A stretch of 32,000 nt of DNA from Ruminococcus albus 7 = DSM 20455. GTDB lineage: Bacteria; Bacillota; Clostridia; Oscillospirales; Ruminococcaceae. The notes beneath the pieces are model-generated. The model had not been told where the DNA came from. It did not search any database and worked only from the letters and a program-made list of their open reading frames with translations. Below, in pieces: positions 4,781 to 32,000 of the stretch. Position 1 is the first letter of the stretch, and the number at the start of each line of letters is the position of its first letter. The stretch lies in NCBI RefSeq assembly GCF_000179635.2, contig NC_014833.1:3000001-3032000 (forward strand). Direction: 5' to 3'. The position numbers were made by a program, and so were the translations under genes.

Positions 4781-4820
4781 CTATACATGACCTCTTTGTC
4801 CAAAATTCTTAAACATTATC

Positions 4821-4849
4821 AGTATAGCACAATCCCGTGTCTTTTGCAA
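4821..4849 (-). promoter_or_regulatory. sigma-A-type promoter upstream of the carboxypeptidase gene
   Basis: Minus strand TTGCAA (4844-4849), 17 nt, then TGcTATACT (-10 at 4821-4826). AAGAGG RBS before the ATG at 4780. Confidence 0.4.
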
Positions 4850-4888
4850 GCGGCTTTTGGCGAAAATGGCGTGAAAAATATTACGGCA

Positions 4889-9001: not shown

Positions 9002-10549
9002 TTACCCTCTGATAACTATCATCCTGCCGTCGTCTATACTGTCAGCACCGTCAGGAAGTCCGTTGTCCTCTCTGACAGCTTCAACTGTTGTACGGCAGCG
9101 CTTGGCTATATCCCATATATCCTCATTCTCACCGCACCTGCACAATCTCAGTGTACAGCTGCTGTCACGGGTCGCCGGCTTATCCTTATTAAGTATAACG
9201 CTGCTTACCAGCTTTGTGCCGCTTCCGCCGTTCAGCTTATAAACTACGCGCACATCCGTCCTGACCCTGATAGTACCGCCGTCACCGAGATAATACGAAC
9301 AGCCTGCTGTTTCAGCATAGGCTTCAAGTGTACTTTCACTGCTTTCTTCGGGAACAGCCGCTTCGGCTTCGTATGTACTCTGTCCCTCTATACAGAAGAT
9401 ACCGCCTTCACTGCCCTCTCCCATGACTGAGCAGGTCACTCCGCCGGATATGCGAAAGGTATTCCCGTCCTTTCTTATGGTAGGACGTGTGCATGATGCA
9501 TAGTGGTCATACACAGCGCCGACTGTGCCGTCAGGTGCGGCAAGGGTGCATTCGGATATACAGGATATATGCTTTTCATCTCCGCTGTCTGAAGATATCT
9601 CAACTATCTCATCCGGAAGACAATCATACTCGGTGGAGTATGCATCAGTCACACCGACACCTGCCCCCGATTTCTCTGCCGTACAAAAGACATCAAGTTC
9701 CAGTTCCCACTCCACGGTATTATCCTCTCCGCCGCCCGCCGTAATACTGCAGCCCGATGGCTTGACCCTGACACTGACCCTGTAGCTGTCATCAAGACCT
9801 TCCATATCTATCATACGGCTGAAGGGCAGGGTAAAACGAAGATCCTGCACACGGTCAGCGCCTGTTTTATCTATACAGGTACACAGTGCTTCCAGCTCGG
9901 CTTCTCCCTTTACCGCTAGCTTTCCCGCCACTATACGCTGCTCTGTCCTTGTTACTGAGCAGCCTGTGCGAAGCACTGTTCCGACAGAGGGCTTATCATC
10001 AGGGAGGGAGGTCTGCTGGATAACTGTTATTCGCTTTGATGCATACAGCCTTTTAACAGGATAGGTGACCGTCTGCTTACGCAGCTGTATTCCGCAGCCG
10101 CTGCCGCCTGTAACAACAGTTTTTTCCCGCTGACAGCACACCTTTACCGATGCGCATAAAGTACCCCGCACATCTATCCGTCTGCTGCCCTTTGCCCGAC
10201 AGGACAGCCGCAGGCAGTTAAGGTCTATCATTACCTCGGGCGAACTGCATTCACCTTCTATATCCAGGGTACGGCTGATCTCCGCATTCTGCTCTATGCA
10301 GTTTATGCGGCCGCTTCCCTCGGTAAGGTACAGCACCCTCACGGTAACGGTGATATCAAATGCCAGTCTCCCGTCGCTCACGCTCTGGGATGTGAGCTGA
10401 GGTTCTGCAGTACACCTGAGTATCCTGAAAACATCAGGATAATAATCAGGCAGAACTATATCCCGTTCCAGCGGCAGTTCCTCAGTGCGGTCAAGGGCTT
10501 TTTCGGTCACGCACACAGTGTCTGATATAAGTCTGAGTTCATCGTTCAT
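9002..10549 (-). CDS. sipL: DUF3794-repeat protein with C-terminal LysM-like domain (SipL/SpoVID-type coat morphogenetic protein)
   Basis: N-terminal LPDYYPDVFRIL motif typical of DUF3794. C-terminal ~45 aa is LysM-like (..EDIWDIAKRCRTTVEAVREDNGLPDG..GRMIVI). The stop is 14 nt before the spoIVA start, so co-transcription is likely. Assignment rests on domain architecture plus context, not on a search. Confidence 0.6.
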   Translation of the reverse strand: MNDELRLISDTVCVTEKALDRTEELPLERDIVLPDYYPDVFRILRCTAEPQLTSQSVSDGRLAFDITVTVRVLYLTEGSGRINCIEQNAEISRTLDIEGECSSPEVMIDLNCLRLSCRAKGSRRIDVRGTLCASVKVCCQREKTVVTGGSGCGIQLRKQTVTYPVKRLYASKRITVIQQTSLPDDKPSVGTVLRTGCSVTRTEQRIVAGKLAVKGEAELEALCTCIDKTGADRVQDLRFTLPFSRMIDMEGLDDSYRVSVRVKPSGCSITAGGGEDNTVEWELELDVFCTAEKSGAGVGVTDAYSTEYDCLPDEIVEISSDSGDEKHISCISECTLAAPDGTVGAVYDHYASCTRPTIRKDGNTFRISGGVTCSVMGEGSEGGIFCIEGQSTYEAEAAVPEESSESTLEAYAETAGCSYYLGDGGTIRVRTDVRVVYKLNGGSGTKLVSSVILNKDKPATRDSSCTLRLCRCGENEDIWDIAKRCRTTVEAVREDNGLPDGADSIDDGRMIVIRG

Positions 10550-10591
10550 GTTTATTTCCTCCTGTTTATAGGATAGCCTTTTGCTATAAAC

Positions 10592-21888: not shown

Positions 21889-21972
21889 GCGGCAGTGCTG
21901 GAACTGGCAGACAGGCACGTTTGAGGGGCGTGTGTCCTAGACGTACGGGTTCAAGTCCCGTTTGCCGCACCA
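21889..21972 (+). tRNA. tRNA-Leu (anticodon GAG), type II with long variable arm, CCA encoded
   Basis: Hand-folded. Acceptor GCGGCAG/TTGCCGC, 3-bp D stem, anticodon stem CACGT/GCGTG with loop TTGAGGG. Variable arm has a GTC/GAC stem. T arm is ACGGG-TTCAAGT-CCCGT. Discriminator A, which favours Leu over Ser. Confidence 0.85.
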
Positions 21973-22117: not shown

Positions 22118-23329
22118 TTATCCATATTTTTCTATCGAATTATGGCTGTCGTTATTGCTATCACTTATTGTTAGCCTTAAAGTGTCGGCTACTGATTCCA
22201 TAGCTTCTGCATTGGCTTTAGCCATCGAATGAGCATAAATGTTTAAAGTCGTTGAGGTTTGGGAGTGCCCTAAACAAGCTGATACAGTGCGTATATTAAC
22301 TCCGCTATGGATAAGTAAACTAGCGTTCAAATGACGTAGGCTGTGTAATCCAAGGAATCTTAGGTTATTACGGTCACAAAGCTTTTTGAGCCAATTATAC
22401 GGAGTTGCACCGTCCATTACTTTACCATTCCAAGTTGTAAATAAGCGATCTGTTTCATTCCATTGGTCGCCGACTTTTAAAATTTGTTTAGCTTGTTCCG
22501 CTTTGTGAATTTTTAAAATGTTAATTACATCGGCAGTAAATTTAAGATCACGTACAGAGCCTTTTGTTTTAGGAGTATCGGTATAATGACCTTTTTCCTT
22601 GGTGTAAAGAGCGGTTCGTCTGATGCTTACAACATTTGTATTAAAATCGACATCTTTCCACTCCAGTCCAAGGAGTTCACCACGCCTGAAGCCACCATAT
22701 ATAGCAAGTGTTAAAAAGGCTCTGTATTTTGTTGGGGCTTCCTGCAGAAGTGATAATAAATGCTGTGTTTCTTCAAGCGTATATATTTCCTTTTCATGTT
22801 CTGCAATTTTAGGTAATAAAACATTTTTGCACGGATTATCCGAGATCATTTGCATTTTCTCGGCATAGCTGAAAACCATTGAAATAAATGTCGAATAATG
22901 CTTTATGGTTTTGGGAGAAAGTTTACCGCCTGTACGAATGTTTATTCCCTCTCCCCCGAGATCGTTTATAAATTTTTGTATAATGCGTGTATTTATCTTA
23001 TCGATTCGTAAATGACCTATAGCCTTATATGTTCGTGCTTTAAGCTGTTTAGTGCGTTCAAGAGTTTTGGGCTTATAGTTTTTTTCGGCATAAGTTGAAA
23101 ACCATTCCTCAGCCACTGTCTCGAATTTTGCCGCATTGACGATCATGTTCCCTTTACACTGTTCCTCGAACATAACAGCAAATCGGTTTAGCTCTTTCTC
23201 GTTCTGCATTTTGCTCCTTTTGGGGTCGGGGTGCCATGTGGTCGATTGCGTAATTTTGCGTCCGCTGACATCGTAACCACACGATACACGAATAAGATAA
23301 CTATTGCCACGTTTTTTGATGTAAGCCAT
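22118..23329 (-). CDS. int: site-specific tyrosine recombinase (phage-type integrase)
   Basis: MAYIKKRGNSYLIRVS.. N-terminal SAM-like domain. C-terminal catalytic motifs ..GLHSLRHLNASLL.. and ..LGHSQTSTTLNIYAH. ATG 23329 follows GGAAAGGA, and the 36-codon upstream extension in the track is rejected. The 3' end lies 146 bp from the tRNA-Leu. Confidence 0.93.
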   Translation of the reverse strand: MAYIKKRGNSYLIRVSCGYDVSGRKITQSTTWHPDPKRSKMQNEKELNRFAVMFEEQCKGNMIVNAAKFETVAEEWFSTYAEKNYKPKTLERTKQLKARTYKAIGHLRIDKINTRIIQKFINDLGGEGINIRTGGKLSPKTIKHYSTFISMVFSYAEKMQMISDNPCKNVLLPKIAEHEKEIYTLEETQHLLSLLQEAPTKYRAFLTLAIYGGFRRGELLGLEWKDVDFNTNVVSIRRTALYTKEKGHYTDTPKTKGSVRDLKFTADVINILKIHKAEQAKQILKVGDQWNETDRLFTTWNGKVMDGATPYNWLKKLCDRNNLRFLGLHSLRHLNASLLIHSGVNIRTVSACLGHSQTSTTLNIYAHSMAKANAEAMESVADTLRLTISDSNNDSHNSIEKYG

Positions 23330-23669
23330 AAAAACAGTCCTTTCCAAAAAATAAAATTCTTTTATTGAAAAAATACGCAAATAACTTTTACTAAAGTGCT
23401 GTATTACGTTACTGCATATAGTATAAGACAGTATCATGGGTTTTGTAAACTGAAAGGACGCTAATGTTATTAATTTTATAAAAAATTTACCAAGACGGAA
23501 ATATGAGTAAAGCAGATGGCTGCCTTCAGAGTTAAAAAAATTAAAAAGATTTTATAGAAATAATCCTCAGGAACAACAAGAAAAAATCATGAGGACCCTA
23601 CTTACTTATATTATAATTTTGAAATCTGACTATACCTTTACCAACCACTTAAAATTCGGCTCGACAAGA

Positions 23670-23677: not shown

Positions 23678-24702
23678 CATGGTTATCCCTTTAACACACC
23701 ACAGATAATTTACAATGCTGTCCAAATAAACAGACCTCAAAAACCGGAAAATATAGTATAATAGTGACAGGAAACGAAAGGAGCTGTCGCTATGTCAAAA
23801 AGATTTCCGAAACCTGAGATCACACTTGATGGGATATATTCAAAGTTCGCAGATGAAAGCTTTTGCAAGGATTTTCTGCTTGATATCCGCTTTGAAAAGG
23901 GCTTTGCCTGCCCGTTTTGCGGTGGCTCTGAGTACCGCAGGATAAGGTCACGCCATCTGCTGCGCTGCAAGTTCTGTAAAGCAGATATATCCGCCACAAA
24001 CGGAACTTTTATGCACAGAACACATATTCCGCTCAGACTGTGGATAGTCACCGCATTCCTCATTATGAGCAACAAATGCAGTGTTTCTGCTGTTACGCTG
24101 ATGAGGTCTTTGGGGGTGACCTACAAGACTGCATGGTACATCCTTCACCGCATCAGAAAAGCTATGAAATGCCGTGAAGAACGCTATTTGCTCGACGGAA
24201 TCGTTGAACTTGATGACACGTATCTCGGTGCTCCGACTCACGGTAAAAAGCGCGGCAGAGGTACTGAAAAAGTCAAGATGATCGTAGCTTTTATCGAAGA
24301 ACGCAGCAGGAAATCCCGAGTACGTTAAAATGAGAGATGTGCCGAATTTAAAGGGTATAACTGTGGGTAGATTTGCCAGGGATAATATCCGCGCTGGCTC
24401 GAAGATCGAGAGTGATAATGCTCGAAGTTACAAGAAACCGTTGGCACAGAAATACTTCCATGTTTTTGAAACATATGATCCGACAAGCGGTCAGCTGAAT
24501 TGGATGCATAAAGTTATATCAAAACTTCAAAGCAATGATCATGGGAACTTACCACGGAAACGAAAAGATCCACACAGCGTTATATGCTGCCGAATACTGT
24601 TACAAATTCAACCGTCGTAAGCTGGGAAACAGTGCGTATTTAAGGCTTTTGGCTGCTTTGGTGCAGTGATCTTACTTGTGGTGTGTTAAGGGGATAACCA
24701 TA
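23678..24702 (+). mobile_element. IS1595-family insertion sequence, copy 1 (1025 bp, transposase frameshifted)
   Basis: Ends are CATGGTTATCCCTTTAACACACCACA.. and ..TGTGGTGTGTTAAGGGGATAACCATA (~25-bp imperfect terminal inverted repeats). 8-bp TSD. Apart from two 1-nt insertions, the regions compared are identical to copy 2. Confidence 0.9.
23792..24669 (+). pseudogene. ISXO2-like (IS1595-family) DDE transposase, inactivated by two +1 frameshifts
   Basis: Track ORFs 23792-24328 and 24330-24620 plus a third-frame tail together reproduce the 291-aa copy-2 protein. Extra T in the run at 24289-24292 and extra A in the run at 24521-24524. Confidence 0.85.
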
Positions 24703-24710: not shown

Positions 24711-24795
24711 TGCTGAGGTTCTCTTTCTTCACCGCCGACGGTGGGAAAGAGAGAACTGCCAAACTCTCATTATATTCGTTTAAACGATATTAAGT

Positions 24796-24820
24796 CAGAT
24801 GTGTCAGGGGGATAACCATA
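24796..24820 (+). repeat. solo IS-end-like sequence (..ATGTGTCAGGGGGATAACCATA)
   Basis: Matches the right terminal repeat of the IS (GGTGTGTTAAGGGGATAACCATA) at most positions. No IS body adjoins it. Lies 110 bp beyond the TSD of copy 1. Confidence 0.4.
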
Positions 24821-24862
24821 TTTTGATATTATCTTGCTAAAAAATAATAAGGGGGTGAGTTC

Positions 24863-25084
24863 ATGAGCGGAGAAGAAGTAAGAAAGCTGATACTGGCAAA
24901 TAATGTAAAACTTTGGGAAGTGGCAAAAAAAGCATTCGGGATATCTGACGGCAATTTTTCAAGAAAACTGCGCAAAGATTTTACCGATGAGGAGCTTCAA
25001 AAAGTTATTGTTGCCATCGAGGAACTAAAGTCTGAAAAGAGAAAAACATATGAACTCTTTCAGACAATCGAAAGCAAAAAATAA
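24863..25084 (+). CDS. small (73 aa) putative DNA-binding protein of the integrative element
   Basis: AAGGGGG RBS. Lys/Glu-rich helical sequence with an HTH-like stretch (VKLWEVAKKAFGISDGNFSRKL). First gene of the xis-rep operon. Function not established. Confidence 0.65.
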   Translation: MSGEEVRKLILANNVKLWEVAKKAFGISDGNFSRKLRKDFTDEELQKVIVAIEELKSEKRKTYELFQTIESKK

Positions 25085-25095
25085 GGAGGATAATT

Positions 25096-25302
25096 ATGAA
25101 TGAAAAACCAATACCGAGAATGAGAACAGTTAGACAAGCGGCTTTAGAAACCGGGGTTTCCGAATACTTTGTAAGGCAGCTTGTAAAAAACAAGGAAATT
25201 TATTATGTACGATCGGGTAAGAGAGTTTTGATAAATCTCGATTTGTTTATCAGCTTTTTGAACGGCGAAACTGAAAATAATGGAGGATACGATAATGAAT
25301 AA
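25096..25302 (+). CDS. xis: excisionase-family (MerR-like HTH_17) DNA-binding protein
   Basis: ..MRTVRQAALETGVSEYFVRQLVKNKEIYYVRSGKRVLINLDLFISFL.. is the typical excisionase HTH-wing pattern. AAGGAGGA RBS. Part of the integrase-linked operon. Confidence 0.75.
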   Translation: MNEKPIPRMRTVRQAALETGVSEYFVRQLVKNKEIYYVRSGKRVLINLDLFISFLNGETENNGGYDNE

Positions 25303-26122
25303 TATATTTGGTATTGATACCATAGAAATAGTTGCGAACAAGCGTTTGATAAACGCTTATAATTCGCTATTTGTTCCGACTCATTATCTGGATTCAGTCC
25401 GTACCAAGTACGTAATGAACCCAGATTTCATCAACGGTGGTATAACTGTTGAAAAATATAGTGATTATATGTCGTTGATAGGTGAAGCACTGCAAGTTGC
25501 AGGGATAGAAGCACCAGTAATAAGGAGGATAGATTTTCGTGTAGATAATTTTGTCGATGAATATGAGAAGCATTATAAACTACATAAGTTTATGATTCTT
25601 TGTTTAGCGATGTCATATCATAACATTCAGAGTTATGAAAGCTATGATCCTGTGACCCAAGACATTTTATGTATTCGAGCTCAAGGAAAATATTGGGAAG
25701 CAGAGTACTATAATAAGCTCAAGCAAGAGCCGAAATCGGGAATCAAGTCGCGCTTTGAAATGCGAGCCAAAGCAGGCTCGTATCACGTAGGAGATGAGAG
25801 GAGATATTTTGATCTGTACTCTGAAAGATTGATTAAAATCACAAGTAAACAATATTTGCTTAATGTGGCTGAATATTTAAATGATTGTTTGAACGATAAA
25901 TGGGAGCAAGAGAAAAAAAATATTTCCAAACGAGGGTTTTTAGAAAAATATAGTGATAATATTTTTATGAAAGAACAAGCTATTGGATTATGCAATATGC
26001 TCGGCTATAAAGATCCTAAACAGACTGCCTCCAAATTGGATATTAAATATATAAGCCATAAAGAATTATCGCTTTATGTAAATGAGTTGATCACTCTAGG
26101 TGATCGCTTTTTTGAAAGCTAA
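25295..26122 (+). CDS. putative replication-initiation protein (Rep_trans-like); function tentative
   Basis: GGAGGA RBS before ATG 25295; overlaps the xis stop. RIDFRVD resembles the R-I-D-x-A-x-D motif, and ..YYNKL..SRFEMRAK.. the downstream RfE motif, of rolling-circle Rep_trans proteins. Both comparisons are from memory, not a search. Confidence 0.55.
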   Translation: MNNIFGIDTIEIVANKRLINAYNSLFVPTHYLDSVRTKYVMNPDFINGGITVEKYSDYMSLIGEALQVAGIEAPVIRRIDFRVDNFVDEYEKHYKLHKFMILCLAMSYHNIQSYESYDPVTQDILCIRAQGKYWEAEYYNKLKQEPKSGIKSRFEMRAKAGSYHVGDERRYFDLYSERLIKITSKQYLLNVAEYLNDCLNDKWEQEKKNISKRGFLEKYSDNIFMKEQAIGLCNMLGYKDPKQTASKLDIKYISHKELSLYVNELITLGDRFFES

Positions 26123-26300
26123 ATGTATAAAAAATACATTTTTAAAATTATTCATGAAGCGATATAAACTCGCAGATAGTAGGAAAAGTGATGTAATAGT
26201 GTTTTTGATATGTCTAAATAACAGTCATTACTCTTATATTAGATGGTTTGTTTTGGTTTGTCTTAGTTGAGTTAACACTATGATTGAGGAGAGAAAATAT

Positions 26301-26507
26301 ATGATTATAATGAACTTAGCAGAACAGCATAAAAAACTTAGAATAAATGAACATGATAGAAGAGCTGAAAGAGCGTATTGGAAATATGTTGAGTGTGATG
26401 GTGTTCCAGATGGCTTTTATTTAAAATGCAGTTACTGCGGATATGATATCAGCAGGAAAGATGCAGACCATATATGCGCAAACTGCGGAGCTCGTATGAG
26501 CTATTAA
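26301..26507 (+). CDS. small zinc-ribbon protein (CxxC..CxxC)
   Basis: ..LKCSYCGYDISRKDADHICANCGARMSY. GAGGAG RBS 9 nt before ATG 26301; the track start at 26280 is less likely. Confidence 0.6.
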   Translation: MIIMNLAEQHKKLRINEHDRRAERAYWKYVECDGVPDGFYLKCSYCGYDISRKDADHICANCGARMSY

Positions 26508-26647
26508 ATTAGCTTGTATAAAGGAGCGGACAGTGTGGCAGTATGTTTATACTGACGAGAACGTAAAACGCATTGTACAGTATTTTTATTAGCAATAAAC
26601 CTGAATAAACCACAACTACACAAACTGAAATAAAAACTACTTATACA

Positions 26648-26690
26648 AAAGCAATGTCGTAAACAAAAATCGGCATTGCTTTTTTTATTT
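26648..26690 (+). terminator. rho-independent terminator closing the int-xis-rep module
   Basis: Stem AAAGCAATGTCG / CGGCATTGCTTT (one G-T pair), followed by TTTTT. Confidence 0.65.
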
Positions 26691-26811
26691 TGCCTTTTTA
26701 TGTTAACTACAAAAATAAGAAAACAGATATTTTTATTTTGTTAGGCTGCCTTCACATGATTATTTATTTAAGTTATAAAAAATATATAAACTCTATCCGA
26801 ACATACTCGTA

Positions 26812-26840
26812 TTGCATATTGTAGGATTTAATGTTATAAT
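26812..26840 (+). promoter_or_regulatory. strong sigma-A promoter for the Zn-ribbon membrane protein gene
   Basis: TTGCAT, 17 nt, then TGtTATAAT (-10 at 26835-26840). AAGGGGAGGGG RBS before ATG 26874. Confidence 0.6.
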
Positions 26841-26873
26841 ATACCCGATAAAGAAATTTAAGGGGAGGGGCTT

Positions 26874-27692
26874 ATGAACACATTTGTCTGCCCTCACTGC
26901 GGGGGTGAAGTTCCCGAGGGTATGCGGTTTTGTCCGCACTGCATGACTGTGCTTGCCGAGCCGCAGGCTATTGAGATAGGAGCGAAAGGCAGGAAAAAGA
27001 ACAGTTTAGTTTTTATAATAGTCCTGTGTGCTTGTATCGTGACAGGGGCGGCTGTATATTTTGCTGCAAGAGGACATAACGATATTTCCGTACAAAAAAA
27101 TAACACAGACACTGAAGTAAGTGCCGATGTATCGGAAACAGAAAGTTTTACAAGTGATGTTGATTCGTGGGTCGATAGTATGACCGAAAGCATACCTGAT
27201 AATATTGTTACTGATGAAAGCAGTTCTGCTGAAAGTCACGATGAAACTGAGAGTTCTGCAGACAGTTCGGTAAATGAGCATATCACGGAACAAGGCATCA
27301 CACCCGAGAGCCTGTATGCCGATATAAAGGACTGGTGCGGTACACATCCGCCTAAGTATTTCGGTGTGGAGAGTGCTGAAGATATATCCGCCGAGCAGGA
27401 CGGAGACACCACAATGTTTTCGTTTGCCGACAAGGGCGGGGCAAGGATATTTATAGGCACGGATACGGACGGTAATGCAAGCTTTATCATACGGCTGAAT
27501 GATATTTCCGCAGAGGGCAATAACGAGCATGGAGAAGAGATATTATCTGCACTGGGTGACATATTTTTCAGCACTGATCTCAGCGGCAGGGACGGCAATT
27601 TTACCGAGAATGGCTATTCTTTTGAGATAATATGCAATGACTACCCCGATATGTTCTATACAGAGTACATTATCACAGCCGAAAAGCTATAA
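26874..27692 (+). CDS. membrane-anchored protein: N-terminal double-CxxC zinc ribbon, one TM helix, acidic Ser/Asp/Glu-rich linker, uncharacterised C-terminal domain
   Basis: FVCPHCGGEVPEGMRFCPHCMTVL. TM LVFIIVLCACIVTGAAVYFAA. Low-complexity stretch ..TDESSSAESHDETESSADSS... About 130-aa C-terminal domain with no motif I recognise. Confidence 0.85.
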   Translation: MNTFVCPHCGGEVPEGMRFCPHCMTVLAEPQAIEIGAKGRKKNSLVFIIVLCACIVTGAAVYFAARGHNDISVQKNNTDTEVSADVSETESFTSDVDSWVDSMTESIPDNIVTDESSSAESHDETESSADSSVNEHITEQGITPESLYADIKDWCGTHPPKYFGVESAEDISAEQDGDTTMFSFADKGGARIFIGTDTDGNASFIIRLNDISAEGNNEHGEEILSALGDIFFSTDLSGRDGNFTENGYSFEIICNDYPDMFYTEYIITAEKL

Positions 27693-28109
27693 TGTTGCTT
27701 CACCGCGAGAATAAAGCTCGTTGTTTGTTTCGATGACGGACTTTCTGTTCTCTATGCAGAAGATGATAATGCTGTCACGCTTCTTTTTTGCATACAGGAA
27801 AGGATATCCCGACAGCTTTAAAAAGCTCTGCACCTCGTCAAGGGAAAGACTCATAGCTATAAGTATAGAGAGCACTTTGTCACGGGCAGGAGCTTCCTTG
27901 ACCCCCGAAAATATCTGATAGGCATATACCTGGCTTATTTCCGACTTAGCTATAACTTCGGATTTTACAAGACCCTTTTCGGCAAGGATATTTTCAAGCA
28001 TTTCGGAAACCTTTTTGCAAGATATGTTCTCGACGTTGTCCGAAAGATAGCTGTCGATGCTATCGGCAGATCTGATTTCATTAAGCAGTTCGTCTGTGGA
28101 TTTTTTCAT
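27687..28109 (-). CDS. HTH-domain protein (XRE-like, 140 aa)
   Basis: ..SEISQVYAYQIFSGVKEAPARDKVLSILIAMSLSLDEVQSFLKLSGYPFLYAKKKRDSIIIF.. resembles a Clostridial HTH regulator class that I recall as widespread. AAAAGGAG RBS. Divergent from the kinase gene. 6-nt convergent overlap with 26874-27692. Confidence 0.8.
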   Translation of the reverse strand: MKKSTDELLNEIRSADSIDSYLSDNVENISCKKVSEMLENILAEKGLVKSEVIAKSEISQVYAYQIFSGVKEAPARDKVLSILIAMSLSLDEVQSFLKLSGYPFLYAKKKRDSIIIFCIENRKSVIETNNELYSRGEATL

Positions 28110-28232
28110 GGTGATCTACTCCTTTTTATTTGCTGTATTATAGATTATAATAACACGCTTTATCTGATTTTACAAGGGGGCGGTAATATAAACCTCTCGG
28201 AAATTTTATCTGCCGAATACACGCTTGTATCG

Positions 28233-28886
28233 GTGCTTAACAGCAAGGAAAACAGTACACTGATACGCTATCGGAACAATAGACTGGGCAGAGATATAGT
28301 AGTGCGTAAGTTAAGCACTGACAGTAATACAGATGTTTATCGAAGTCTCTCGTGGGTCTGCCATGAGAACTTAGTGCGGATATACGATGTCGTTACCGAG
28401 CAGGACTATACCTATATCCTTGAAGAATACATAGAGGGCATAAGCCTTTCGGAACTTGTACCGATGAACGAAAAGGGCGCACGGACGACAGTGATACAGA
28501 TAGCGAGGGCGCTGTATGTTCTGCAAACGCTGGGCATCGTACACCGTGATATAAAAGAGGACAACGTAATAGTAACAGAGGACGGCACGGTAAAGCTAAC
28601 CGACTTCGATATATCAAAAATATACACCGAGGGCAAAAGCCGTGATACACAGCTTCTGGGTACGTCTACCTATGCCCCGCCCGAGCAGTACGGACTTGCA
28701 CAGACCGACAGCAGGAGCGATATATACTCTCTCGGTATACTCGCAAACAAGCTAGTCACTGGCAAGCACCCGTCTGCCTCGCTGTACACCAAAGGCAGGC
28801 TCGGTAAGTTTATAGTCAAGGCAACGAATATCAGCCCCGACAAGCGTTTTAACTCTGCCGAAGATGTACTGGCGCACTTTCGTTAA
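28233..28886 (+). CDS. minimal Hanks-type Ser/Thr protein kinase domain (no accessory domains); start codon uncertain, possibly ATA 28188 or ATT 28203
   Basis: VHRDIKEDNVIV (HRDxKxxN), LTDFDISK (DFG-like), TSTYAPPEQ (APE-like), SDIYSLGIL, late KRF. The frame stays open upstream of GTG 28233 and encodes ..EYTLVSVLNSKENSTLIRY.., which corresponds to beta1 and the Gly-loop. Confidence 0.85.
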   Translation: MLNSKENSTLIRYRNNRLGRDIVVRKLSTDSNTDVYRSLSWVCHENLVRIYDVVTEQDYTYILEEYIEGISLSELVPMNEKGARTTVIQIARALYVLQTLGIVHRDIKEDNVIVTEDGTVKLTDFDISKIYTEGKSRDTQLLGTSTYAPPEQYGLAQTDSRSDIYSLGILANKLVTGKHPSASLYTKGRLGKFIVKATNISPDKRFNSAEDVLAHFR

Positions 28887-28917
28887 ATATAAAAATTATG
28901 CTGTCAGCATAAGACAA

Positions 28918-28957
28918 AAAGATCCTCCTGTGGTATAATCACCATAGGAGGATCTTT
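28918..28957. terminator. bidirectional terminator between the kinase and XRE genes
   Basis: 17-bp stem AAAGATCCTCCTGTGGT / ACCATAGGAGGATCTTT (one G-T pair) with a 6-nt loop. Confidence 0.75.
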
Positions 28958-29309
28958 AAAGTTCATCAATATTCTCCGCTAATATTTTGACCGTGTTGAG
29001 GAATTTGCTCACCTGCTCGGGTGAATGATTTTTTAATTCTGCCGAAATGCTTTCGAGAACACCCACATCACCGTTCTCGTTTTTGACATCAAGCAGAAGA
29101 TAATCAAGGCTTATTTCCAGCACGGTCGAAATGCTTATGGCAGTATTAAGTGAGAGCTGCCTTGAAGCACGTTCGATATGCCCCACATAGGAAGGCGTGA
29201 TACCGCAAAGCTCCGCCAGCTGTTCCTGACTGAGCCCCAGCTTTACCCTGCGTGAGCGTATCCTCTCGCCAACGGCGGTAAGGCTTAAATTATTGTTGCC
29301 GTCATTCAT
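28956..29309 (-). CDS. XRE-family HTH transcriptional regulator
   Basis: ..ERIRSRRVKLGLSQEQLAELCGITPSYVGHIERASRQLSLNTAISISTVLEISLDYLL.. is a canonical Cro/C1-type HTH. Confidence 0.92.
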   Translation of the reverse strand: MNDGNNNLSLTAVGERIRSRRVKLGLSQEQLAELCGITPSYVGHIERASRQLSLNTAISISTVLEISLDYLLLDVKNENGDVGVLESISAELKNHSPEQVSKFLNTVKILAENIDEL

Positions 29310-29374
29310 TTACATCACCACCAACATTATACATTATGAACAAATATGATGTAAATATACTGTATGTCATGATA

Positions 29375-29403
29375 TTGACAAATAGTACAGAACAGTGTAT
29401 AAT
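29375..29403 (+). promoter_or_regulatory. consensus sigma-A promoter for the membrane-protein gene
   Basis: TTGACA (29375-29380), 17 nt, then TGtTATAAT (-10 at 29398-29403). ACTGTA / TACAG inverted motifs flank the -35 and could be an XRE operator. Confidence 0.65.
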
Positions 29404-29460
29404 GTAGTTAATCCGATATGAGTTAATGTTGATTATAGCTAATTGAAGGAGGAGCGGTTC

Positions 29461-29914
29461 ATGATAGCTTTAGGAATTATTATTACTTTTATAGGTGGGT
29501 TATTTTTACTATATGATTTATATGTATTCTTAGCATTGGGTGAATCCGGTGATGGTTTATTCCTTCTTATTTCAGCCTCTGTAACTGCGCTGGGAGTATT
29601 TTTGTGGCGAATGGGATTGAGGAGAGAGGCTGATGAGATAGAGCAAGGACAGGAAGCTGTCCAAAACGGAATGACACCGTCTCAAAAAAAGGGTGCTGTG
29701 ATCGGTATAATAATACTTATCATTATTTTTGCAACGCCATTTGTGCTGAATTTTATTCCCGATACGCCTGTGAACAAAGAAGAACAGGTATTGAAGTATG
29801 TTGAGGACATAATGAAAGATAAAGAAAAGGCAGTAAAAGACACGGAAGTAAATGCGTCGGTGAGCCATACAAAACCCAAGATACTTGATCATTCGGGTGA
29901 TGTGTATTTTGTTT
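29461..29914 (+). pseudogene. 5' part of a 3-TM membrane-protein gene interrupted by IS copy 2
   Basis: AAGGAGGA RBS, ATG 29461 (MIALGIIITFIGGLFLLYDL..). The frame runs into the IS at 29915 and stops at 29929-29931 after 5 IS-encoded codons. Confidence 0.8.
29907..29914. repeat. target-site duplication TTTTGTTT, left of IS copy 2
   Basis: Identical 8-mer at 30938-30945. Confidence 0.8.
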
Positions 29915-30937
29915 TATGGTTATCCCCTTAACACACCACAAGTAAGATCACTGCACCAAAGCAGCCAAAAGCCTTAAATACGCACTGTTTCCCAGCTTAC
30001 GACGGTTGAATTTGTAACAGTATTCGGCAGCATATAACGCTGTGTGGATCTTTTCGTTTCCGTGGTAAGTTCCCATGATCATTGCTTTGAAGTTTGATAT
30101 AACTTTATGCATCCAATTCAGCTGACCGCTTGTCGGATCATATGTTTCAAAAACATGGAAGTATTTCTGTGCCAACGGTTTCTTGTAACTTCGAGCATTA
30201 TCACTCTCGATCTTCGAGCCAGCGCGGATATTATCCCTGGCAAATCTACCCACAGTTATACCCTTTAAATTCGGCACATCTCTCATTTTAACGTACTCGG
30301 GATTTCCTGCTGCGTTCTTCGATAAAGCTACGATCATCTTGACTTTTTCAGTACCTCTGCCGCGCTTTTTACCGTGAGTCGGAGCACCGAGATACGTGTC
30401 ATCAAGTTCAACGATTCCGTCGAGCAAATAGCGTTCTTCACGGCATTTCATAGCTTTTCTGATGCGGTGAAGGATGTACCATGCAGTCTTGTAGGTCACC
30501 CCCAAAGACCTCATCAGCGTAACAGCAGAAACACTGCATTTGTTGCTCATAATGAGGAATGCGGTGACTATCCACAGTCTGAGCGGAATATGTGTTCTGT
30601 GCATAAAAGTTCCGTTTGTGGCGGATATATCTGCTTTACAGAACTTGCAGCGCAGCAGATGGCGTGACCTTATCCTGCGGTACTCAGAGCCACCGCAAAA
30701 CGGGCAGGCAAAGCCCTTTTCAAAGCGGATATCAAGCAGAAAATCCTTGCAAAAGCTTTCATCTGCGAACTTTGAATATATCCCATCAAGTGTGATCTCA
30801 GGTTTCGGAAATCTTTTTGACATAGCGACAGCTCCTTTCGTTTCCTGTCACTATTATACTATATTTTCCGGTTTTTGAGGTCTGTTTATTTGGACAGCAT
30901 TGTAAATTATCTGTGGTGTGTTAAAGGGATAACCATG
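29915..30937 (-). mobile_element. IS1595-family insertion sequence, copy 2 (1023 bp, intact)
   Basis: Same terminal repeats as copy 1, in inverted orientation. 8-bp TSD. Single 291-aa transposase ORF. Confidence 0.92.
29948..30823 (-). CDS. ISXO2-like (IS1595-family) DDE transposase with N-terminal zinc ribbon
   Basis: 291 aa. CPFCGGSEYRRIRSRHLLRCKFCK zinc ribbon, then a DDE-type core (..VELDDTYLG.., ..IESDNARSY.., ..YAAEYCYKFNRR..). Confidence 0.93.
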   Translation of the reverse strand: MSKRFPKPEITLDGIYSKFADESFCKDFLLDIRFEKGFACPFCGGSEYRRIRSRHLLRCKFCKADISATNGTFMHRTHIPLRLWIVTAFLIMSNKCSVSAVTLMRSLGVTYKTAWYILHRIRKAMKCREERYLLDGIVELDDTYLGAPTHGKKRGRGTEKVKMIVALSKNAAGNPEYVKMRDVPNLKGITVGRFARDNIRAGSKIESDNARSYKKPLAQKYFHVFETYDPTSGQLNWMHKVISNFKAMIMGTYHGNEKIHTALYAAEYCYKFNRRKLGNSAYLRLLAALVQ

Positions 30938-30945
30938 TTTTGTTT
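30938..30945. repeat. target-site duplication TTTTGTTT, right of IS copy 2
   Basis: See 29907-29914. Confidence 0.8.
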
Positions 30946-31121
30946 ATATGGAAGTCACTTCAAAAACTGCAATGTACGGAGAAGCAGGTGGTGATCTGGT
31001 AGTTGTAAAGGTCGAGGATAAAAATAAATGCTCGTGGGTGACTGATATGGCTACCGATACAGATGATGAACATATCCAAAAGGCTTTAGATGTGGCAAAA
31101 CAACTATACGGAAACGGATAA
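30946..31121 (+). pseudogene. 3' part of the IS-interrupted membrane-protein gene
   Basis: Deleting the IS and one TSD copy joins ..GDVYFV to YMEVTSKTAMYGEAGGDLVVVKVEDKNKCSWVTDMATDTDDEHIQKALDVAKQLYGNG* in frame. Total is 630 nt, or 209 codons plus the stop. Confidence 0.75.
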
Positions 31122-31137: not shown

Positions 31138-32000
31138 ATGAAAAAAATACTAGCAATTTTACTATCAATGGTCATGGCAGGAATGGTTTTCGGTTCTTGC
31201 GGAAGTGAGGAACAAACTGAAACACAGGCTAAAACAACGGAGCAGGTTTCATCGGAGGATGATCAAAACAGAGAGCCGACAGAGAACGACTACAAGGAGC
31301 AGCTTAAAGCTATTTATGATGCTTTAAAAGATCATCCTTTCAGTAATGGAAATCCCATAGAAGAGATACGAATAGAATTGGGACGAGATACATATGACGG
31401 GGGGGATAAATATGAATCAGGAACAACAGAAGCGGATATTGTAAACACTGTAAATGGTATTTATGACAGTAAATTATCAGATTGTCATGTTTCTATTGAG
31501 TATAATACAACTAACAATTATAGTATTGACTCCATCAAAATAATTACTGATCGCGGAACAGAAGAAAACTATTGCTTAGTGTATTATCCCGAGACTGACA
31601 GATGCAATAATTTAGATTTAACCAATATAGCAAGGGAAATTGCGGCAGTAGGATATAATGTTTTTACTGGAAATATGGATACAATGAATGGAAAAATGGC
31701 TGAAATTGTAGATTTTTCAAATTCAGAAGCTAACAGTGAGATAGGGAATAAAATCGTTGAAAAATACAAAGCCGATAGTTATTTCGATTTTACTGGAAGG
31801 GCATTTGTATATAGTGAGGCTATATATAGTGGTGCAGTATGTACATATGATGATAATTGGTCATCTATGGAGTTTGCACCTTATGATTTTGAAACATACT
31901 TCAAATCTGATATTGAAAGCAAAGGATTATCTTTTGACGAAGCGTGTGAGTATCTTAGCAAAGATGATGTTGGAGTTTCGGCATATAAACAGTACAAAAC
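31138..32000 (+). CDS. lipoprotein of unknown function; 3' end runs off the right window edge
   Basis: Absent from the ORF track because there is no stop in the window. AAAAGGAGGG RBS, ATG 31138. MKKILAILLSMVMAGMVFGSCGSEEQ has a lipobox Cys. The frame stays open to position 32000. Confidence 0.85.
   Translation, partial: MKKILAILLSMVMAGMVFGSCGSEEQTETQAKTTEQVSSEDDQNREPTENDYKEQLKAIYDALKDHPFSNGNPIEEIRIELGRDTYDGGDKYESGTTEADIVNTVNGIYDSKLSDCHVSIEYNTTNNYSIDSIKIITDRGTEENYCLVYYPETDRCNNLDLTNIAREIAAVGYNVFTGNMDTMNGKMAEIVDFSNSEANSEIGNKIVEKYKADSYFDFTGRAFVYSEAIYSGAVCTYDDNWSSMEFAPYDFETYFKSDIESKGLSFDEACEYLSKDDVGVSAYKQYK

What the first reader, a model, noticed from the sequence alone, without database searches (positions are those of the whole stretch)
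26812..29403. Accessory cassette: Zn-ribbon membrane protein, HTH, minimal atypical Hanks kinase, XRE, arranged as back-to-back regulator/effector pairs
Downstream of the int-xis-rep module lies a compact block in which every gene has its own strong promoter or terminator. The first gene (26874-27692) encodes a zinc ribbon, one TM helix, an acidic linker and an unknown domain.

The second (27687-28109, minus strand) encodes an HTH protein. It is transcribed divergently from a 217-232-aa stand-alone Ser/Thr kinase (28233-28886) across only 123 bp, and the two -10 regions there overlap. The fourth gene (28956-29309, minus strand) encodes an XRE regulator, divergent from a 3-TM protein and a lipoprotein.

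The kinase keeps its catalytic loop (HRDIKEDN), a DFD metal-binding motif and APPE. However, the GxGxxG loop is replaced by N-S-K-E-N-S. By eye, the alphaC Glu position reads Ser (..VYRSLSW..). It has no sensor, PASTA or TM domain.

A kinase-only protein on a mobile island, under tight local HTH control and next to a membrane Zn-ribbon protein, does not match any system I can name. The layout resembles toxin/immunity or abortive-infection modules more than housekeeping signalling.
Basis: partly seen in the sequence, partly recalled or inferred. Interest (0 to 1): 0.7.

Follow-up and report, generated by a model that had tools for sequence, protein, structure and literature searches.

The report
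Zinc-ribbon sensor, mini-kinase, HTH regulator
A small mobile element in a Ruminococcus albus-type genome carries a conserved, apparently undescribed signalling module (a membrane protein with a zinc-ribbon tail, a stripped-down Ser/Thr kinase, and a DNA-binding protein with its own conserved operator) that is common in gut Clostridia, is also present in Listeria, and does not look like a toxin or phage-defence cassette.

Summary
The four genes exist as described, with three corrections. The kinase most likely starts at a non-canonical ATA (28188, 232 aa). The '3-TM' gene is cut by an IS1595 element. Promoter-like sites are not more frequent than chance.

The cassette is cargo of a roughly 9-kb tRNA-Leu integrative element, but its core is an ordinary chromosomal module in most other species.

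In 80 species-level loci of the kinase family:
- the 140-aa HTH protein lies within 6 kb in 73;
- an N-terminal CxxC-x10-CxxC plus TM protein lies within 4 kb in 72;
- most loci without one have the kinase fused to TM segments instead.

Neighbouring genes are unrelated housekeeping genes, not defence islands.

I found a 15-bp palindrome, TATGC-N5-GCATA. It occurs once in the window (28897-28911) and is module-adjacent in 56 of 80 loci. It abuts a -35/-10 pair at fixed spacing. Its sequence variants track one residue of the HTH recognition helix.

The HTH protein has an invariant Thr5.

Best reading: a split receptor kinase signals to an XRE-type regulator, which controls an adjacent promoter. 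In this window that promoter reads antisense through xre towards membrane and lipoprotein genes. The toxin/Abi reading is not supported. The Listeria kinase Lmo0618 and its divergent 151-aa HTH neighbour form the same pair.

The parts
21889..21972 (+). tRNA-Leu(gag), the integration site of the element that carries the cassette
   Evidence: ARAGORN. In R. albus KH2T6 (L020), the tRNA 3' end plus the start of an integrase recurs about 9 kb downstream.
22118..23437 (-). Tyrosine integrase of the element
   Evidence: Phage_integrase, E 2.6e-23.
23678..24702 (+). IS1595-family copy A. The transposase is broken by two single-base indels. It has its own 8-bp target duplication, ATATATTA.
   Evidence: Inverted repeats I1-I3 against copy B. 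The empty site is seen in L020.
24863..26507 (+). Element backbone: a 73-aa protein, an HTH_17 excisionase-like protein, a 280-aa 'rep' with no family match, and a 75-aa Cys-rich protein
   Evidence: Collinear with L002, L004 and L020.
26874..27692 (+). Zinc-ribbon / single-TM / acidic linker / unknown ectodomain protein, the putative sensor partner of the kinase
   Evidence: Zn_Ribbon_1. CxxC-x10-CxxC lies at the N-terminus in 92 of 94 module partners. Such genes are 37-fold denser within 500 bp of the kinase than at 4-6 kb.
27687..28109 (-). 'H140': a 140-aa XRE-type HTH regulator with invariant Thr5. It is the proposed binder of the palindrome and the proposed kinase substrate.
28110..28187 (.). 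Divergent promoter region with overlapping -10 boxes (TATAAT 28146-28151 on +, TATTAT 28152-28147 on -) and the kinase SD AAGGGGG (28174-28180)
   Evidence: It is 100% identical in all R. albus-type copies.
28188..28886 (+). Minimal Hanks-type Ser/Thr kinase, 232 aa, with an ATA start codon. The catalytic loop and Mg site are intact. The G-loop is degenerate, the beta3 Lys is replaced by Arg, alphaC is short, and alphaG is absent.
28897..28911 (.). Palindrome TATGCTGTCAGCATA, the proposed H140 operator
   Evidence: It is the only exact copy in 32 kb (0.08 expected). The same element is module-adjacent in 56 of 80 loci and in Listeria. It covaries with H140 residue 61.
28911..28939 (+). Proposed output promoter AAGACA-17-TGgTATAAT. 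Its predicted start near 28946 reads antisense through xre.
   Evidence: The geometry is conserved: a -10-like hexamer starts 22-24 nt from the palindrome in 51 of 57 loci.
28918..28957 (.). 17-bp-arm hairpin between the convergent kinase and xre genes, acting as a bidirectional terminator. The -10 of the output promoter sits in its loop.
28956..29309 (-). 117-aa XRE regulator, an accessory part present in about 24 of 80 loci
   Evidence: HTH_3, E 7.9e-17..
29326..29403 (.). Divergent promoters of xre (TTTACA-18-TATAAT, - strand) and of the membrane-protein operon (TTGACA-17-TATAAT, + strand), with inverted repeats
29461..31121 (+). 3-TM membrane protein gene, interrupted by IS copy B. The restored ORF is about 213 aa.
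   Evidence: The intact alleles in L001-L003 are 285 aa.
29915..30937 (-). IS1595-family copy B, with an intact 291-aa transposase and its own 8-bp duplication, TTTTGTTT
   Evidence: DDE_Tnp_IS1595 E 1.1e-21 and Zn_ribbon_IS1595 E 1.4e-10..
31138..32000 (+). Lipoprotein-like ORF (MKKILAILLSMVMAGMVFGSCGS...) that runs off the window

Best explanation
The core of the finding is a three-part transmembrane signalling module. In this window it is carried as cargo of a small tRNA-Leu integrative element.

1. **Sensor.** The membrane protein (26874-27692) exposes a variable ectodomain. It presents only a 25-aa zinc ribbon to the cytoplasm. It acts as the separate sensor half of a split receptor kinase and docks or activates the soluble kinase.
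2. **Kinase.** The 232-aa kinase (28188-28886) keeps the catalytic machinery (HRD, Asn, DFD, APE). It has lost the usual nucleotide-positioning elements, and it is translated from a weak AUA codon. It is therefore scarce and probably inactive without its partner.
3. **Regulator.** The substrate is the divergently encoded 140-aa XRE-type regulator, at its invariant Thr5.
4. **Operator and promoter.** That regulator binds the 15-bp palindrome TATGCTGTCAGCATA (28897-28911). The palindrome is centred about 42 bp upstream of the predicted start of a sigma-70-type promoter (28911-28939).
5. **Output in this window.** The promoter fires rightwards. It reads antisense through the second regulator gene xre and towards the membrane-protein and lipoprotein operon that xre presumably represses. 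Kinase signalling would therefore flip a local two-regulator switch.

**Shown here:** the gene set is conserved; stand-alone and fused architectures are complementary; the palindrome exists, has fixed promoter geometry and covaries with the recognition helix; Thr5 is invariant.

**Inferred:** kinase activity, Thr5 as the phospho-acceptor, the sensor role of the zinc-ribbon protein, and whether regulation is positive or negative.
For: **Module conservation**
- The kinase family has at least 587 hits across one-genome-per-species contigs.
- In the best 80 loci, H140 lies within 6 kb in 73; three of the seven misses are at contig ends. It is directly divergent in 49 and lies upstream on the same strand in 17, consistent with an H140 -> ZnR -> kinase operon.
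- A CxxC-x10-CxxC plus TM protein lies within 4 kb in 72 of 80, usually abutting or overlapping the kinase gene.
- Density of such genes is 0.67 per kb within 500 bp, against 0.018 per kb at 4-6 kb.

**Complementary architectures**
- Of the 8 loci without a zinc-ribbon partner, three (L070, L084, L090) have the kinase fused to one TM helix plus a large ectodomain (714-1003 aa in total), and two (L063, L088) have it fused to a 3-TM tail. L092 is a similar fusion (549 aa) but keeps a weakly scoring zinc-ribbon ORF nearby.
- Listeria Lmo0618 is a kinase fused to a multi-TM region, with no zinc-ribbon gene nearby.
- Ectodomains are variable and of binding type: Beta_helix 15, BspA LRR_5 13, NosD 5.

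**Kinase**
- HRD, N111, D124, E151, D163 and R205 are invariant across 23 diverse members.
- The fold model is confident and closest to PknB.

**H140**
- It has an XRE HTH core.
- Thr5 is invariant in 77 of 77 distinct sequences, one of only five invariant positions.
- No Ser or Thr is conserved in the zinc-ribbon tails.

**Operator**
- There is one exact copy in the window, with 0.08 expected.
- There are 67 exact copies in 854 kb of loci, and 59 of them are module-adjacent.
- A TAnnnT hexamer starts 22-24 nt from the palindrome on the output side in 51 of 57 loci. Other offsets average 5.4.
- The same arrangement occurs in Listeria, upstream of a DUF5067 gene.
- In L033, L041 and L043 the promoter drives zinc-ribbon genes directly.
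- Symmetric operator variants go with changes at residues 59 and 61, at the start of the predicted recognition helix: TAAGC with N59/I61, TGTGC with N61, TACGC with S or P at 61. Val61 occurs in 34 of 48 TATGC loci and 0 of 11 variant loci (Fisher p 1.6e-5, not corrected for phylogeny).

**Weak start codons**
- SD-supported starts in 84 loci are ATG 43, TTG 13, GTG 7, ATT 14, ATC 3, ATA 3 and CTG 1.
Against: - No experiment bears on any step.
- The canonical beta3 Lys is Arg in this protein, and K-to-R is the classical kinase-dead substitution (established knowledge). The G-loop and alphaC Glu are also missing, so the protein may bind ATP poorly or not at all.
- No phosphatase gene accompanies the module.
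- Thr5 lies at the N-cap of predicted helix 1. It could be conserved for structural reasons.
- In this window the zinc-ribbon gene is not co-transcribed with the kinase. It converges on H140.
- In this window the palindrome lies downstream of the kinase rather than next to H140.
- The first gene downstream of xre is destroyed by an IS, so the output here may be partly defunct.
- An operator abutting a -35 box can repress as well as activate.
- The covariation statistic ignores shared ancestry.
- 24 of 80 loci lack an exact palindrome, although several of these have symmetric variants.
Confidence: 0.5

Rival explanations
1. Pseudokinase scaffold. The kinase-like protein is catalytically dead. 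It works as an adaptor that tethers H140 to the zinc-ribbon membrane protein, in the manner of an anti-sigma factor, and releases it when the ectodomain is engaged. No phosphorylation is involved.
For: The G-loop is degenerate, the beta3 Lys position is R, H or K, there is no alphaC Glu, and alphaC is short. No phosphatase gene is present in any inspected locus. The architecture of zinc ribbon, TM helix and variable ectodomain resembles anti-sigma factors (established knowledge).
Against: HRD Asp, the Mg-binding Asn, the DFx Asp, APE, and the GT motif of the P+1 loop are invariant over members down to 35% identity. Pseudokinases usually lose these residues; C. difficile CD2148, for example, lacks both the Asp and the Asn (PMC9674922). 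An invariant Thr in the partner fits phosphotransfer.
Confidence: 0.2
2. The zinc-ribbon membrane proteins are outputs rather than sensors. They would be surface proteins such as adhesins or binding proteins. The H140/kinase pair would control their expression or fate in response to a cytoplasmic cue.
For: In L033, L041 and L043 the palindrome-linked promoter directly precedes zinc-ribbon genes. Arrays of 2-4 paralogues lie downstream in L042 and L051. Ectodomains are BspA-LRR and beta-helix types, which are common in surface proteins.
Against: Kinase-TM-ectodomain fusions occur where no zinc-ribbon partner is present. The kinase and zinc-ribbon genes often overlap by a few bases, as expected for subunits of one complex. 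The two roles are not mutually exclusive, since sensors are often autoregulated.
Confidence: 0.15
3. A toxin-antitoxin, abortive-infection or phage-defence kinase module. The kinase is a toxin or effector held in check by the HTH protein.
For: In this genome the cassette is on a mobile element. One identical copy (L001) lies beside AAA_5/VWA, DUF4143 and DUF5724 genes. The best PADLOC hit is PD-T4-6, E 1.4e-38. Weak start codons suit a dangerous protein. HipB/HipA is a precedent for an XRE protein paired with a kinase (established knowledge; PMC8262856 was listed).
Against: Of 124 neighbours in 79 species, 3 are integrases and 4 hit PADLOC. Only 3 viral contigs carry the HTH family. The PD-T4-6 hits cover only the generic catalytic core and score about the same as Pfam Pkinase. 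Gene order is divergent rather than antitoxin-toxin. The obligatory membrane partner with an ectodomain, and the receptor-kinase fusions, do not fit a TA pair.
Confidence: 0.07
4. The palindrome is an RNA-level element, such as a hairpin in the kinase 5' or 3' UTR that acts as an attenuator, terminator or processing site. It would not be a DNA operator.
For: In the divergent class it lies 16-36 nt upstream of the kinase start. There it is often the apex of a longer hairpin followed by a T-run. In the window class it lies in the kinase 3' UTR. Symmetric arm changes also preserve RNA pairing.
Against: The arm sequence itself is conserved from Clostridia to Listeria. In many copies dyad symmetry extends to 7+7 bp around a single central base, which cannot fold as RNA. 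The spacing to a -10 box on the output side is fixed, which places the palindrome upstream of that transcript. It covaries with a recognition-helix residue. There is no Rfam match.
Confidence: 0.08

Closest known systems
Listeria monocytogenes Lmo0618 with its divergent 151-aa neighbour and the downstream DUF5067 gene
   Same: It belongs to the same kinase family (35% identity over 95% of the query). It has a divergent H140 homologue with the K-x-T-x-x-L N-terminus and the YGYQIFSG recognition helix. It has an exact TATGC-N5-GCATA palindrome 4 nt after the kinase stop, followed by GGACTT-17-TCTAAT.
   Different: The kinase is fused to a C-terminal multi-TM region (380 aa) and there is no zinc-ribbon partner. 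It is chromosomal. It has been described only as a putative kinase whose deletion lowers intracellular replication 5-10-fold (PMC3091722). One paper compared it to TraE1 (PMC4379056). No mechanism is known.
PASTA-type Hanks kinases (PknB, PrkC, Stk1, StkP)
   Same: It has the same fold and catalytic residues, and these are the best structural and sequence matches.
   Different: It has no TM or PASTA domain. The G-loop is degenerate, the beta3 Lys is Arg, and there is no alphaC Glu or alphaG. The NCBIfam score is 130 bits against a cutoff of 450. The partners are different.
Kinase-to-transcription-factor one-step signalling, for example Vibrio PknT phosphorylating the ECF sigma factor EcfP, or Mycobacterium PknK-VirS (from my own knowledge, not checked here)
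   Same: The proposed logic is the same: a Hanks kinase encoded next to a transcription factor activates it by Thr phosphorylation.
   Different: The factor here is an XRE-type HTH rather than a sigma or AraC protein. The sensor is a separate zinc-ribbon membrane protein. None of the steps has been shown.
Lambda cI at OR2/PRM and class II activators (established knowledge)
   Same: An XRE-family dimer sits on a palindrome centred near -42, abutting the -35 box of the promoter it controls.
   Different: Activation is only inferred from geometry. The protein is not a homologue beyond the HTH core.
HipB-HipA toxin-antitoxin
   Same: An XRE-type HTH gene lies next to a Ser/Thr kinase gene.
   Different: HipA has a different kinase fold (established knowledge), whereas this protein matches Pfam Pkinase. 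The order here is divergent. A membrane partner is present. The genomic context is not TA-like.
Defence kinases PD-T4-6, Stk2 and MAD6
   Same: Generic kinase-core similarity.
   Different: The hits cover only the catalytic core (query residues about 39-180). There is no shared architecture and no defence-island context.
C. difficile CD2148 (an atypical STK)
   Same: It is a Clostridial Hanks-like kinase without PASTA domains that lacks several canonical residues (PMC9674922).
   Different: CD2148 has lost the catalytic Asp and Asn and is membrane-anchored. This family keeps both residues and is soluble.

Membership tests
Hanks-type (eukaryote-like) protein kinase superfamily | Bilobal kinase fold | tested here: met
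   Model pLDDT 86.5 and pTM 0.83. Foldseek hit PknB 1o6y, E 4.8e-15, TM 0.77. Pkinase E 1.3e-33.
Hanks-type (eukaryote-like) protein kinase superfamily | Catalytic loop HRDxKxxN, DFG Asp, and APE | tested here: met
   HRDIKEDN, DFD and APPE are present. H104, R105, D106, N111, D124 and E151 are invariant in 23 family members.
Hanks-type (eukaryote-like) protein kinase superfamily | GxGxxG loop, VAIK Lys, and alphaC Glu | tested here: not met
   The Pfam match starts only at profile position 53. The loop reads NSKENS. The beta3 position is Arg25 (R, H or K across the family). No acidic residue is conserved in H34-39. The residue assignment comes from alignment, not from a superposition.
PD-T4-6 single-gene defence kinase (PADLOC) | Full-length match to a PD-T4-6 model, and a defence context | tested here: not met
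   The best hit, E 1.4e-38, covers profile positions 62-208 of 486. Only 4 of 124 neighbours hit PADLOC.
HipBA-type kinase toxin-antitoxin | HipA-type kinase fold and an antitoxin-toxin operon | tested here: not met
   The Pfam Pkinase family matches and no HipA family is listed. The HTH gene is divergent in 49 of 80 loci.
XRE/Cro-C1 HTH regulators (for the 140-aa protein) | Five-helix HTH core | tested here: met
   Foldseek hits DdrO, C.Esp1396I, SinR and 434 Cro over 59-82 aligned columns (mostly 64-75), with TM 0.42-0.78 relative to the target, lowest for full-length DdrO, which is longer than its HTH core. 11 of 39 homologues pass HTH_31 or HTH_3 at E <= 0.01. The window protein itself has no Pfam HTH hit.
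XRE/Cro-C1 HTH regulators (for the 140-aa protein) | Sequence-specific binding to a palindromic operator | tested here: inconclusive
   The associated palindrome is conserved and covaries with residues 59 and 61. Binding itself cannot be tested with these tools.
IS1595 family insertion sequence | DDE_Tnp_IS1595 transposase with an N-terminal zinc ribbon, terminal inverted repeats, and an 8-bp target duplication | tested here: met
tRNA-targeting integrative (mobilisable) element | Tyrosine integrase next to a tRNA gene, an excisionase, and direct repeats of the tRNA 3' end at both ends | tested here: inconclusive
   An integrase, an HTH_17 protein and tRNA-Leu are present. The right end is not inside the window. 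In KH2T6 the tRNA 3' end recurs about 9 kb downstream, followed by a second integrase.

The most novel reading that the evidence does not exclude
This is a previously undescribed and widespread bacterial signalling system. It uses a minimal Hanks kinase whose ATP-site elements are degenerate and whose own start codon is often AUU, AUC or AUA. A separate membrane sensor switches the kinase on through a 25-residue zinc ribbon. The kinase then phosphorylates an invariant N-terminal Thr of a dedicated XRE-type activator. That activator binds TATGC-N5-GCATA at about -42. The whole works as a Ser/Thr-based counterpart of two-component systems, found in gut and rumen Clostridia and in Listeria.
Probability: 0.4. 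Interest if true: 0.8.

Novelty: new variant of a known kind. Interest (0 to 1): 0.7.

Why it matters
Hanks kinases in Firmicutes are known mainly as PASTA-type cell-wall sensors with many diffuse substrates. A compact, self-contained pathway with a dedicated regulator and a recognisable operator would be different.

It would be a Ser/Thr analogue of a two-component system. Its regulon could be read directly from genome sequence.

The 140-aa regulator family is large: 476 clusters at 50% identity with E <= 1e-30. The module occurs in many uncultured gut and rumen Clostridia. Its variable beta-helix and LRR ectodomains may sense host or dietary cues.

The Listeria copy (Lmo0618 and its neighbours) gives a genetically tractable test case, and a virulence-related phenotype has already been reported for it (PMC3091722).

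The recurrent AUU/AUC/AUA start codons and the Lys-to-Arg N-lobe are unusual enough to interest people who work on translation and on kinase mechanism.

Tried and rejected
- **Curated libraries.** Pfam, NCBIfam, PADLOC and PHROGs give only generic kinase, XRE and zinc-ribbon hits. They give nothing for the 140-aa protein or for 'rep'.
- **Profile search of the 140-aa family against PDB sequences.** Only weak XRE hits, best E 0.0066.
- **Rfam on 26500-29950.** Nothing meaningful.
- **Literature searches.** Searches for a zinc-ribbon / Hanks kinase / XRE system found no description. C. difficile CD2148 was considered and rejected as a different protein.
- **Composite transposon.** The two inverted IS1595 copies flank the cassette, but each has its own 8-bp duplication, and KH2T6 has the same gene order without copy A. 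They are two independent insertions.
- **Defence island or prophage cargo.** Rejected by the neighbour census and the viral-contig scan.
- **Homology between fused ectodomains and stand-alone zinc-ribbon ectodomains.** Only weak LRR-level similarity.
- **Structure prediction with loci-derived sequences.** No complex prediction was possible.
- **GTG 28233 as the true start.** Rejected. It has no SD, and the upstream in-frame peptide is under protein-level conservation.
- **Operators in the H140-kinase gap of the window.** Only the ATTATA-GAT-TATAAT dyad formed by the two -10 boxes was found. It cannot be told apart from the promoters themselves.

Full report
**1. What is in the window**

The window, from left to right, holds:
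- tRNA-Leu(gag) at 21889-21972;
- a tyrosine integrase at 22118-23437;
- an IS1595-family copy with a frameshifted transposase (23678-24702);
- small xis-like genes, one of them HTH_17, and a 280-aa 'rep' that matches nothing in Pfam, NCBIfam or PHROGs;
- a 75-aa Cys-rich protein;
- the cassette.

G+C falls from about 0.47-0.54 in the first 21 kb to 0.34-0.44 from 22 kb onward.

The closest genome is Ruminococcus albus KH2T6 (kinase 97% identical). There the same element is collinear but lacks IS copy A. The tRNA 3' end plus an integrase start recurs about 9 kb downstream. The cassette therefore rides on a small tRNA-Leu integrative element.

The two IS copies are inverted and identical apart from two single-base indels. 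Each has its own 8-bp duplication (ATATATTA and TTTTGTTT), so they are separate insertions and not a composite transposon. Copy B splits the '3-TM' gene. Removing it restores an ORF that ends at 31121. A lipoprotein-like ORF follows and runs off the window.

**2. The four proteins**

*Zinc-ribbon protein.* It has Zn_Ribbon_1 at residues 6-23, one TM helix, an acidic linker, and an ectodomain found in only 22 protein clusters, all of the few that are named being ruminococcal.

*The 140-aa protein ('H140').* It has no Pfam hit of its own. However, 11 of 39 relatives hit HTH_31 or HTH_3. Its model (pLDDT 93.4) overlays XRE/Cro cores, with extra helices at both ends.

*The kinase.* It is a genuine Hanks fold. 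Across 23 members down to 35% identity, these residues are invariant: H104, R105, D106, N111, D124, G143, T144, E151, D163 and R205.

The N-lobe, however, is stripped:
- The Pfam match begins at profile position 53.
- The Gly-rich loop reads NSKENS.
- The beta3 Lys position is Arg25 (R, H or K in the family).
- AlphaC is six residues long and has no conserved acid.
- There is no alphaG.

*XRE.* The 117-aa XRE protein is ordinary.

**3. The kinase start codon**

The frame is open upstream of GTG 28233. It encodes NLSEILSAEYTLVS, which is conserved in relatives at 75-76% identity with synonymous codon changes such as TTA/CTC/CTA for Leu.

The codon aligned with the ATG of the 56% relative L011 is ATA at 28188, 7 nt after AAGGGGG. 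The same ATA is present in every R. albus-type copy. The 76% relative has ATA and the 75% relative has ATT.

Across 84 loci, the SD-supported start is ATG in 43, TTG in 13, GTG in 7, ATT in 14, ATC in 3, ATA in 3 and CTG in 1. Where the position is ATT in one species it is ATG or GTG in a close relative: IYTWL against MYTWL.

Weak initiation of the kinase therefore looks selected. At least two clades show it. The counts are not phylogenetically independent.

**4. Is the gene set conserved?**

Identical copies of the four genes occur in other contexts. One copy (L001) lies next to AAA_5/VWA, DUF4143 and DUF5724 genes and shares only 26719-29779 with the window.

More distant kinases (42-56% identity) again have a 139-aa gene upstream and a Zn_Ribbon_1 membrane protein beside them. 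They sit among ABC transporters, GerA, VanY, PPK2 and similar genes.

A scan of one genome per species gave at least 587 relatives. I analysed the best 80:
- H140 is within 6 kb in 73. It is directly divergent in 49 and upstream on the same strand in 17, consistent with H140 -> zinc-ribbon -> kinase operons.
- A protein that begins with CxxC-x10-CxxC followed by a TM helix is within 4 kb in 72.
- Such genes are 37-fold denser within 500 bp of the kinase than at 4-6 kb.
- Of the eight loci without one, three (L070, L084, L090) have the kinase fused to a TM helix plus a large ectodomain (714-1003 aa in total), and two (L063, L088) have it fused to a 3-TM tail. L092 is a similar fusion but keeps a weak zinc-ribbon candidate nearby.

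Ectodomains vary: Beta_helix 15, BspA LRR_5 13, NosD 5, and most with no match.

The XRE gene accompanies the module in only about 24 of 80 loci, usually convergent just after the kinase.

**5. Context: mobile element or defence island?**

A census of 124 neighbouring ORFs from 79 loci hit 136 different Pfam families, with no theme. Three were integrases. Four had PADLOC hits at E <= 1e-10.

The H140 family is found on 3 of 2.9 million viral contigs.

The H140 family is large: 476 clusters at 50% identity with E <= 1e-30. Almost all members are stand-alone proteins of 138-150 aa.

The mobile context in this window is therefore the exception.

**6. A conserved operator-like element**

Reading the divergent intergenic regions showed a recurring palindrome, TATGC-N5-GCATA.

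The window has exactly one copy in 32 kb, TATGCTGTCAGCATA at 28897-28911. It lies 10 nt after the kinase stop. The chance expectation is 0.08.

In the 80 loci there are 67 exact copies in 854 kb. Of these, 59 are module-adjacent, in 56 loci:
- 22 lie in the divergent gap;
- 19 lie upstream of H140 in co-directional operons;
- 17 lie just after the kinase stop, as in the window;
- one lies upstream of the kinase start in a locus with no H140 gene alongside.

On one side the palindrome always abuts a -35-like hexamer (TTGATT, TTGTTT, GTTGAA, GGACAA). A TAnnnT hexamer starts 22-24 nt away in 51 of 57 cases. Other offsets average 5.4, with a maximum of 18. The dyad centre is therefore near -42 of a sigma-70-type promoter. 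This is the geometry of lambda cI at PRM and of class II activators (established knowledge).

In the window this promoter is AAGACA-17-TGgTATAAT (28911-28939, also found by the scan). Its -10 box lies in the loop of the 17-bp-arm hairpin between kinase and xre. This layout is repeated in the relatives of this class.

The promoter points:
- towards H140 in the first two classes;
- towards zinc-ribbon genes in L033, L041 and L043;
- antisense through xre in the window class.

Some loci have promoters on both sides of the palindrome.

**7. Who binds the palindrome?**

H140 is the only regulator common to all classes.

Its predicted recognition helix (H60-68..VYAYQIFSG) is highly conserved. Q65, G69, P74 and R76 are at 97-100%.

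Loci without the exact palindrome often carry symmetric variants, and these go with changes at the start of that helix:
- TAAGC..GCTTA with N59/I61 (6 loci);
- TGTGC..GCACA with N61 (3 loci);
- TACGC..GCGTA with S61 or P61 (L011, L036, L087).

Val61 occurs in 34 of 48 TATGC loci and in 0 of 11 variant loci (Fisher p 1.6e-5, not corrected for phylogeny).

This supports H140 as the binder but does not prove it.

An RNA role is not excluded, because the element is transcribed in two of the three classes. Several points argue for a DNA site: the conserved arm sequence, dyads of 7+7 bp around one base, the fixed promoter spacing, and the lack of any Rfam match.

**8. Link from kinase to H140**

Thr5 of H140 is invariant in 77 of 77 distinct sequences. 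It is one of only five invariant positions, inside a K-x-T-x-x-L motif.

The zinc-ribbon tails have no conserved Ser or Thr.

This makes H140 Thr5 the best candidate phospho-acceptor. The caveat is that it sits at the N-cap of predicted helix 1.

The kinase and zinc-ribbon genes often overlap by a few bases. Fused and stand-alone architectures are complementary. Both observations point to the zinc-ribbon protein as the membrane half of a split receptor kinase.

**9. Listeria**

A tblastn search of plasmid and phage records found the pair in Listeria. The pair is a 151-aa H140 homologue (…KETSKLL…, …YGYQIFSG…) divergent from a 380-aa kinase with a multi-TM tail.

The length and description match Lmo0618 (PMC4379056).

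An exact palindrome lies 4 nt after the kinase stop. It is followed by GGACTT-17-TCTAAT and a DUF5067 gene.

An lmo0618 deletion was reported to reduce intracellular replication 5-10-fold (PMC3091722). No mechanism has been described in the papers held here.

**10. Verdict**

The toxin/Abi flavour is not supported.

The best-supported reading is a compact Ser/Thr signalling pathway: a sensor with a zinc-ribbon tail, a minimal kinase, an XRE-type regulator, and a palindrome-linked promoter.

In this window the pathway is wired so that its output promoter runs antisense through a second regulator gene and into membrane and lipoprotein genes, one of which is now destroyed by an IS.

Conservation, architecture, the operator geometry and the covariation are shown here. 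Catalysis, the phospho-site, the sensor role and the sign of regulation are inferred.

Noticed in passing
window 28188-28190; also L035, L049, L052, L065, L069, L071, L083, L085, L086, L091, L095-L098, L100, L102: The kinase gene starts with ATA in the window. In about a quarter of the family it starts with ATT, ATC or ATA at the position where relatives have ATG or GTG. Each of these is preceded by a strong, correctly spaced SD. Only about half of the family uses ATG.
   Followed up: yes
window 28897-28911 and 56 of 80 related loci; L103 6126-6140: A 15-bp palindrome, TATGC-N5-GCATA, lies at fixed distance from a -35/-10 pair. It is conserved from Clostridia to Listeria. Symmetric variants track residues 59 and 61 of the 140-aa HTH protein.
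   Followed up: yes
window 23678-24702 and 29915-30937: Two inverted IS1595-family copies are identical except for two single-base indels, which frameshift copy A. Each has its own 8-bp target duplication. The indels could be real or could be homopolymer sequencing errors.
   Followed up: partly
window 29461-29914 plus 30946-31121: The 3-TM membrane protein gene is interrupted by IS copy B. From 29780 onward this allele also differs from the 285-aa alleles in L001-L003 and L020.
   Followed up: partly
window 24786-24829: A solitary sequence is 73% identical to the IS terminal repeat (…GGGGGATAACCAT…). It lies about 80 bp from the end of IS copy A and falls within the stretch that aligns with the IS-free KH2T6 element. 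It may be a relic of an older insertion.
   Followed up: no
L103 (Listeria monocytogenes NZ_LR134399.1) 4418-6696: Listeria carries the H140-kinase pair (the kinase is Lmo0618, 380 aa) with the same palindrome and promoter upstream of a DUF5067 gene. A deletion phenotype is published, but no mechanism.
   Followed up: partly
window 26719-29779 compared with L001, L002 and L020: Divergence between alleles is mosaic. The kinase gene is 98-99% identical and the H140-kinase gap 100% identical. H140 is 90-92%, the zinc-ribbon gene about 94%, xre 93-100%, and the 5' part of the 3-TM gene 78%.
   Followed up: no
L001 1-8537: One identical copy of the cassette lies beside AAA_5 plus VWA-like, DUF3841, AAA_14/DUF4143 and DUF5724 genes rather than in the integrase element. 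This is a possible defence-type neighbourhood.
   Followed up: no
L020 (R. albus KH2T6) 9768-10589: A second copy of the tRNA-Leu 3' end and an integrase 3' part follows the element. This suggests two elements in tandem at the same tRNA.
   Followed up: no
L037, L047, L050, L053, L054, L074, L075, L079, L094 and L033, L039, L041-L043, L051: In many loci the palindrome is flanked by promoter-like -35/-10 pairs on both sides (GGACTT-17-TATAAT on the second side). In the class where it follows the kinase, the second promoter would read antisense into the kinase gene.
   Followed up: partly
It is conserved in the related elements (L002, L004, L005), and its function is unverified.
   Followed up: partly
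window 1-21800: The host part of the window, with higher G+C and large ORFs up to 1244 aa, was not examined.
   Followed up: no
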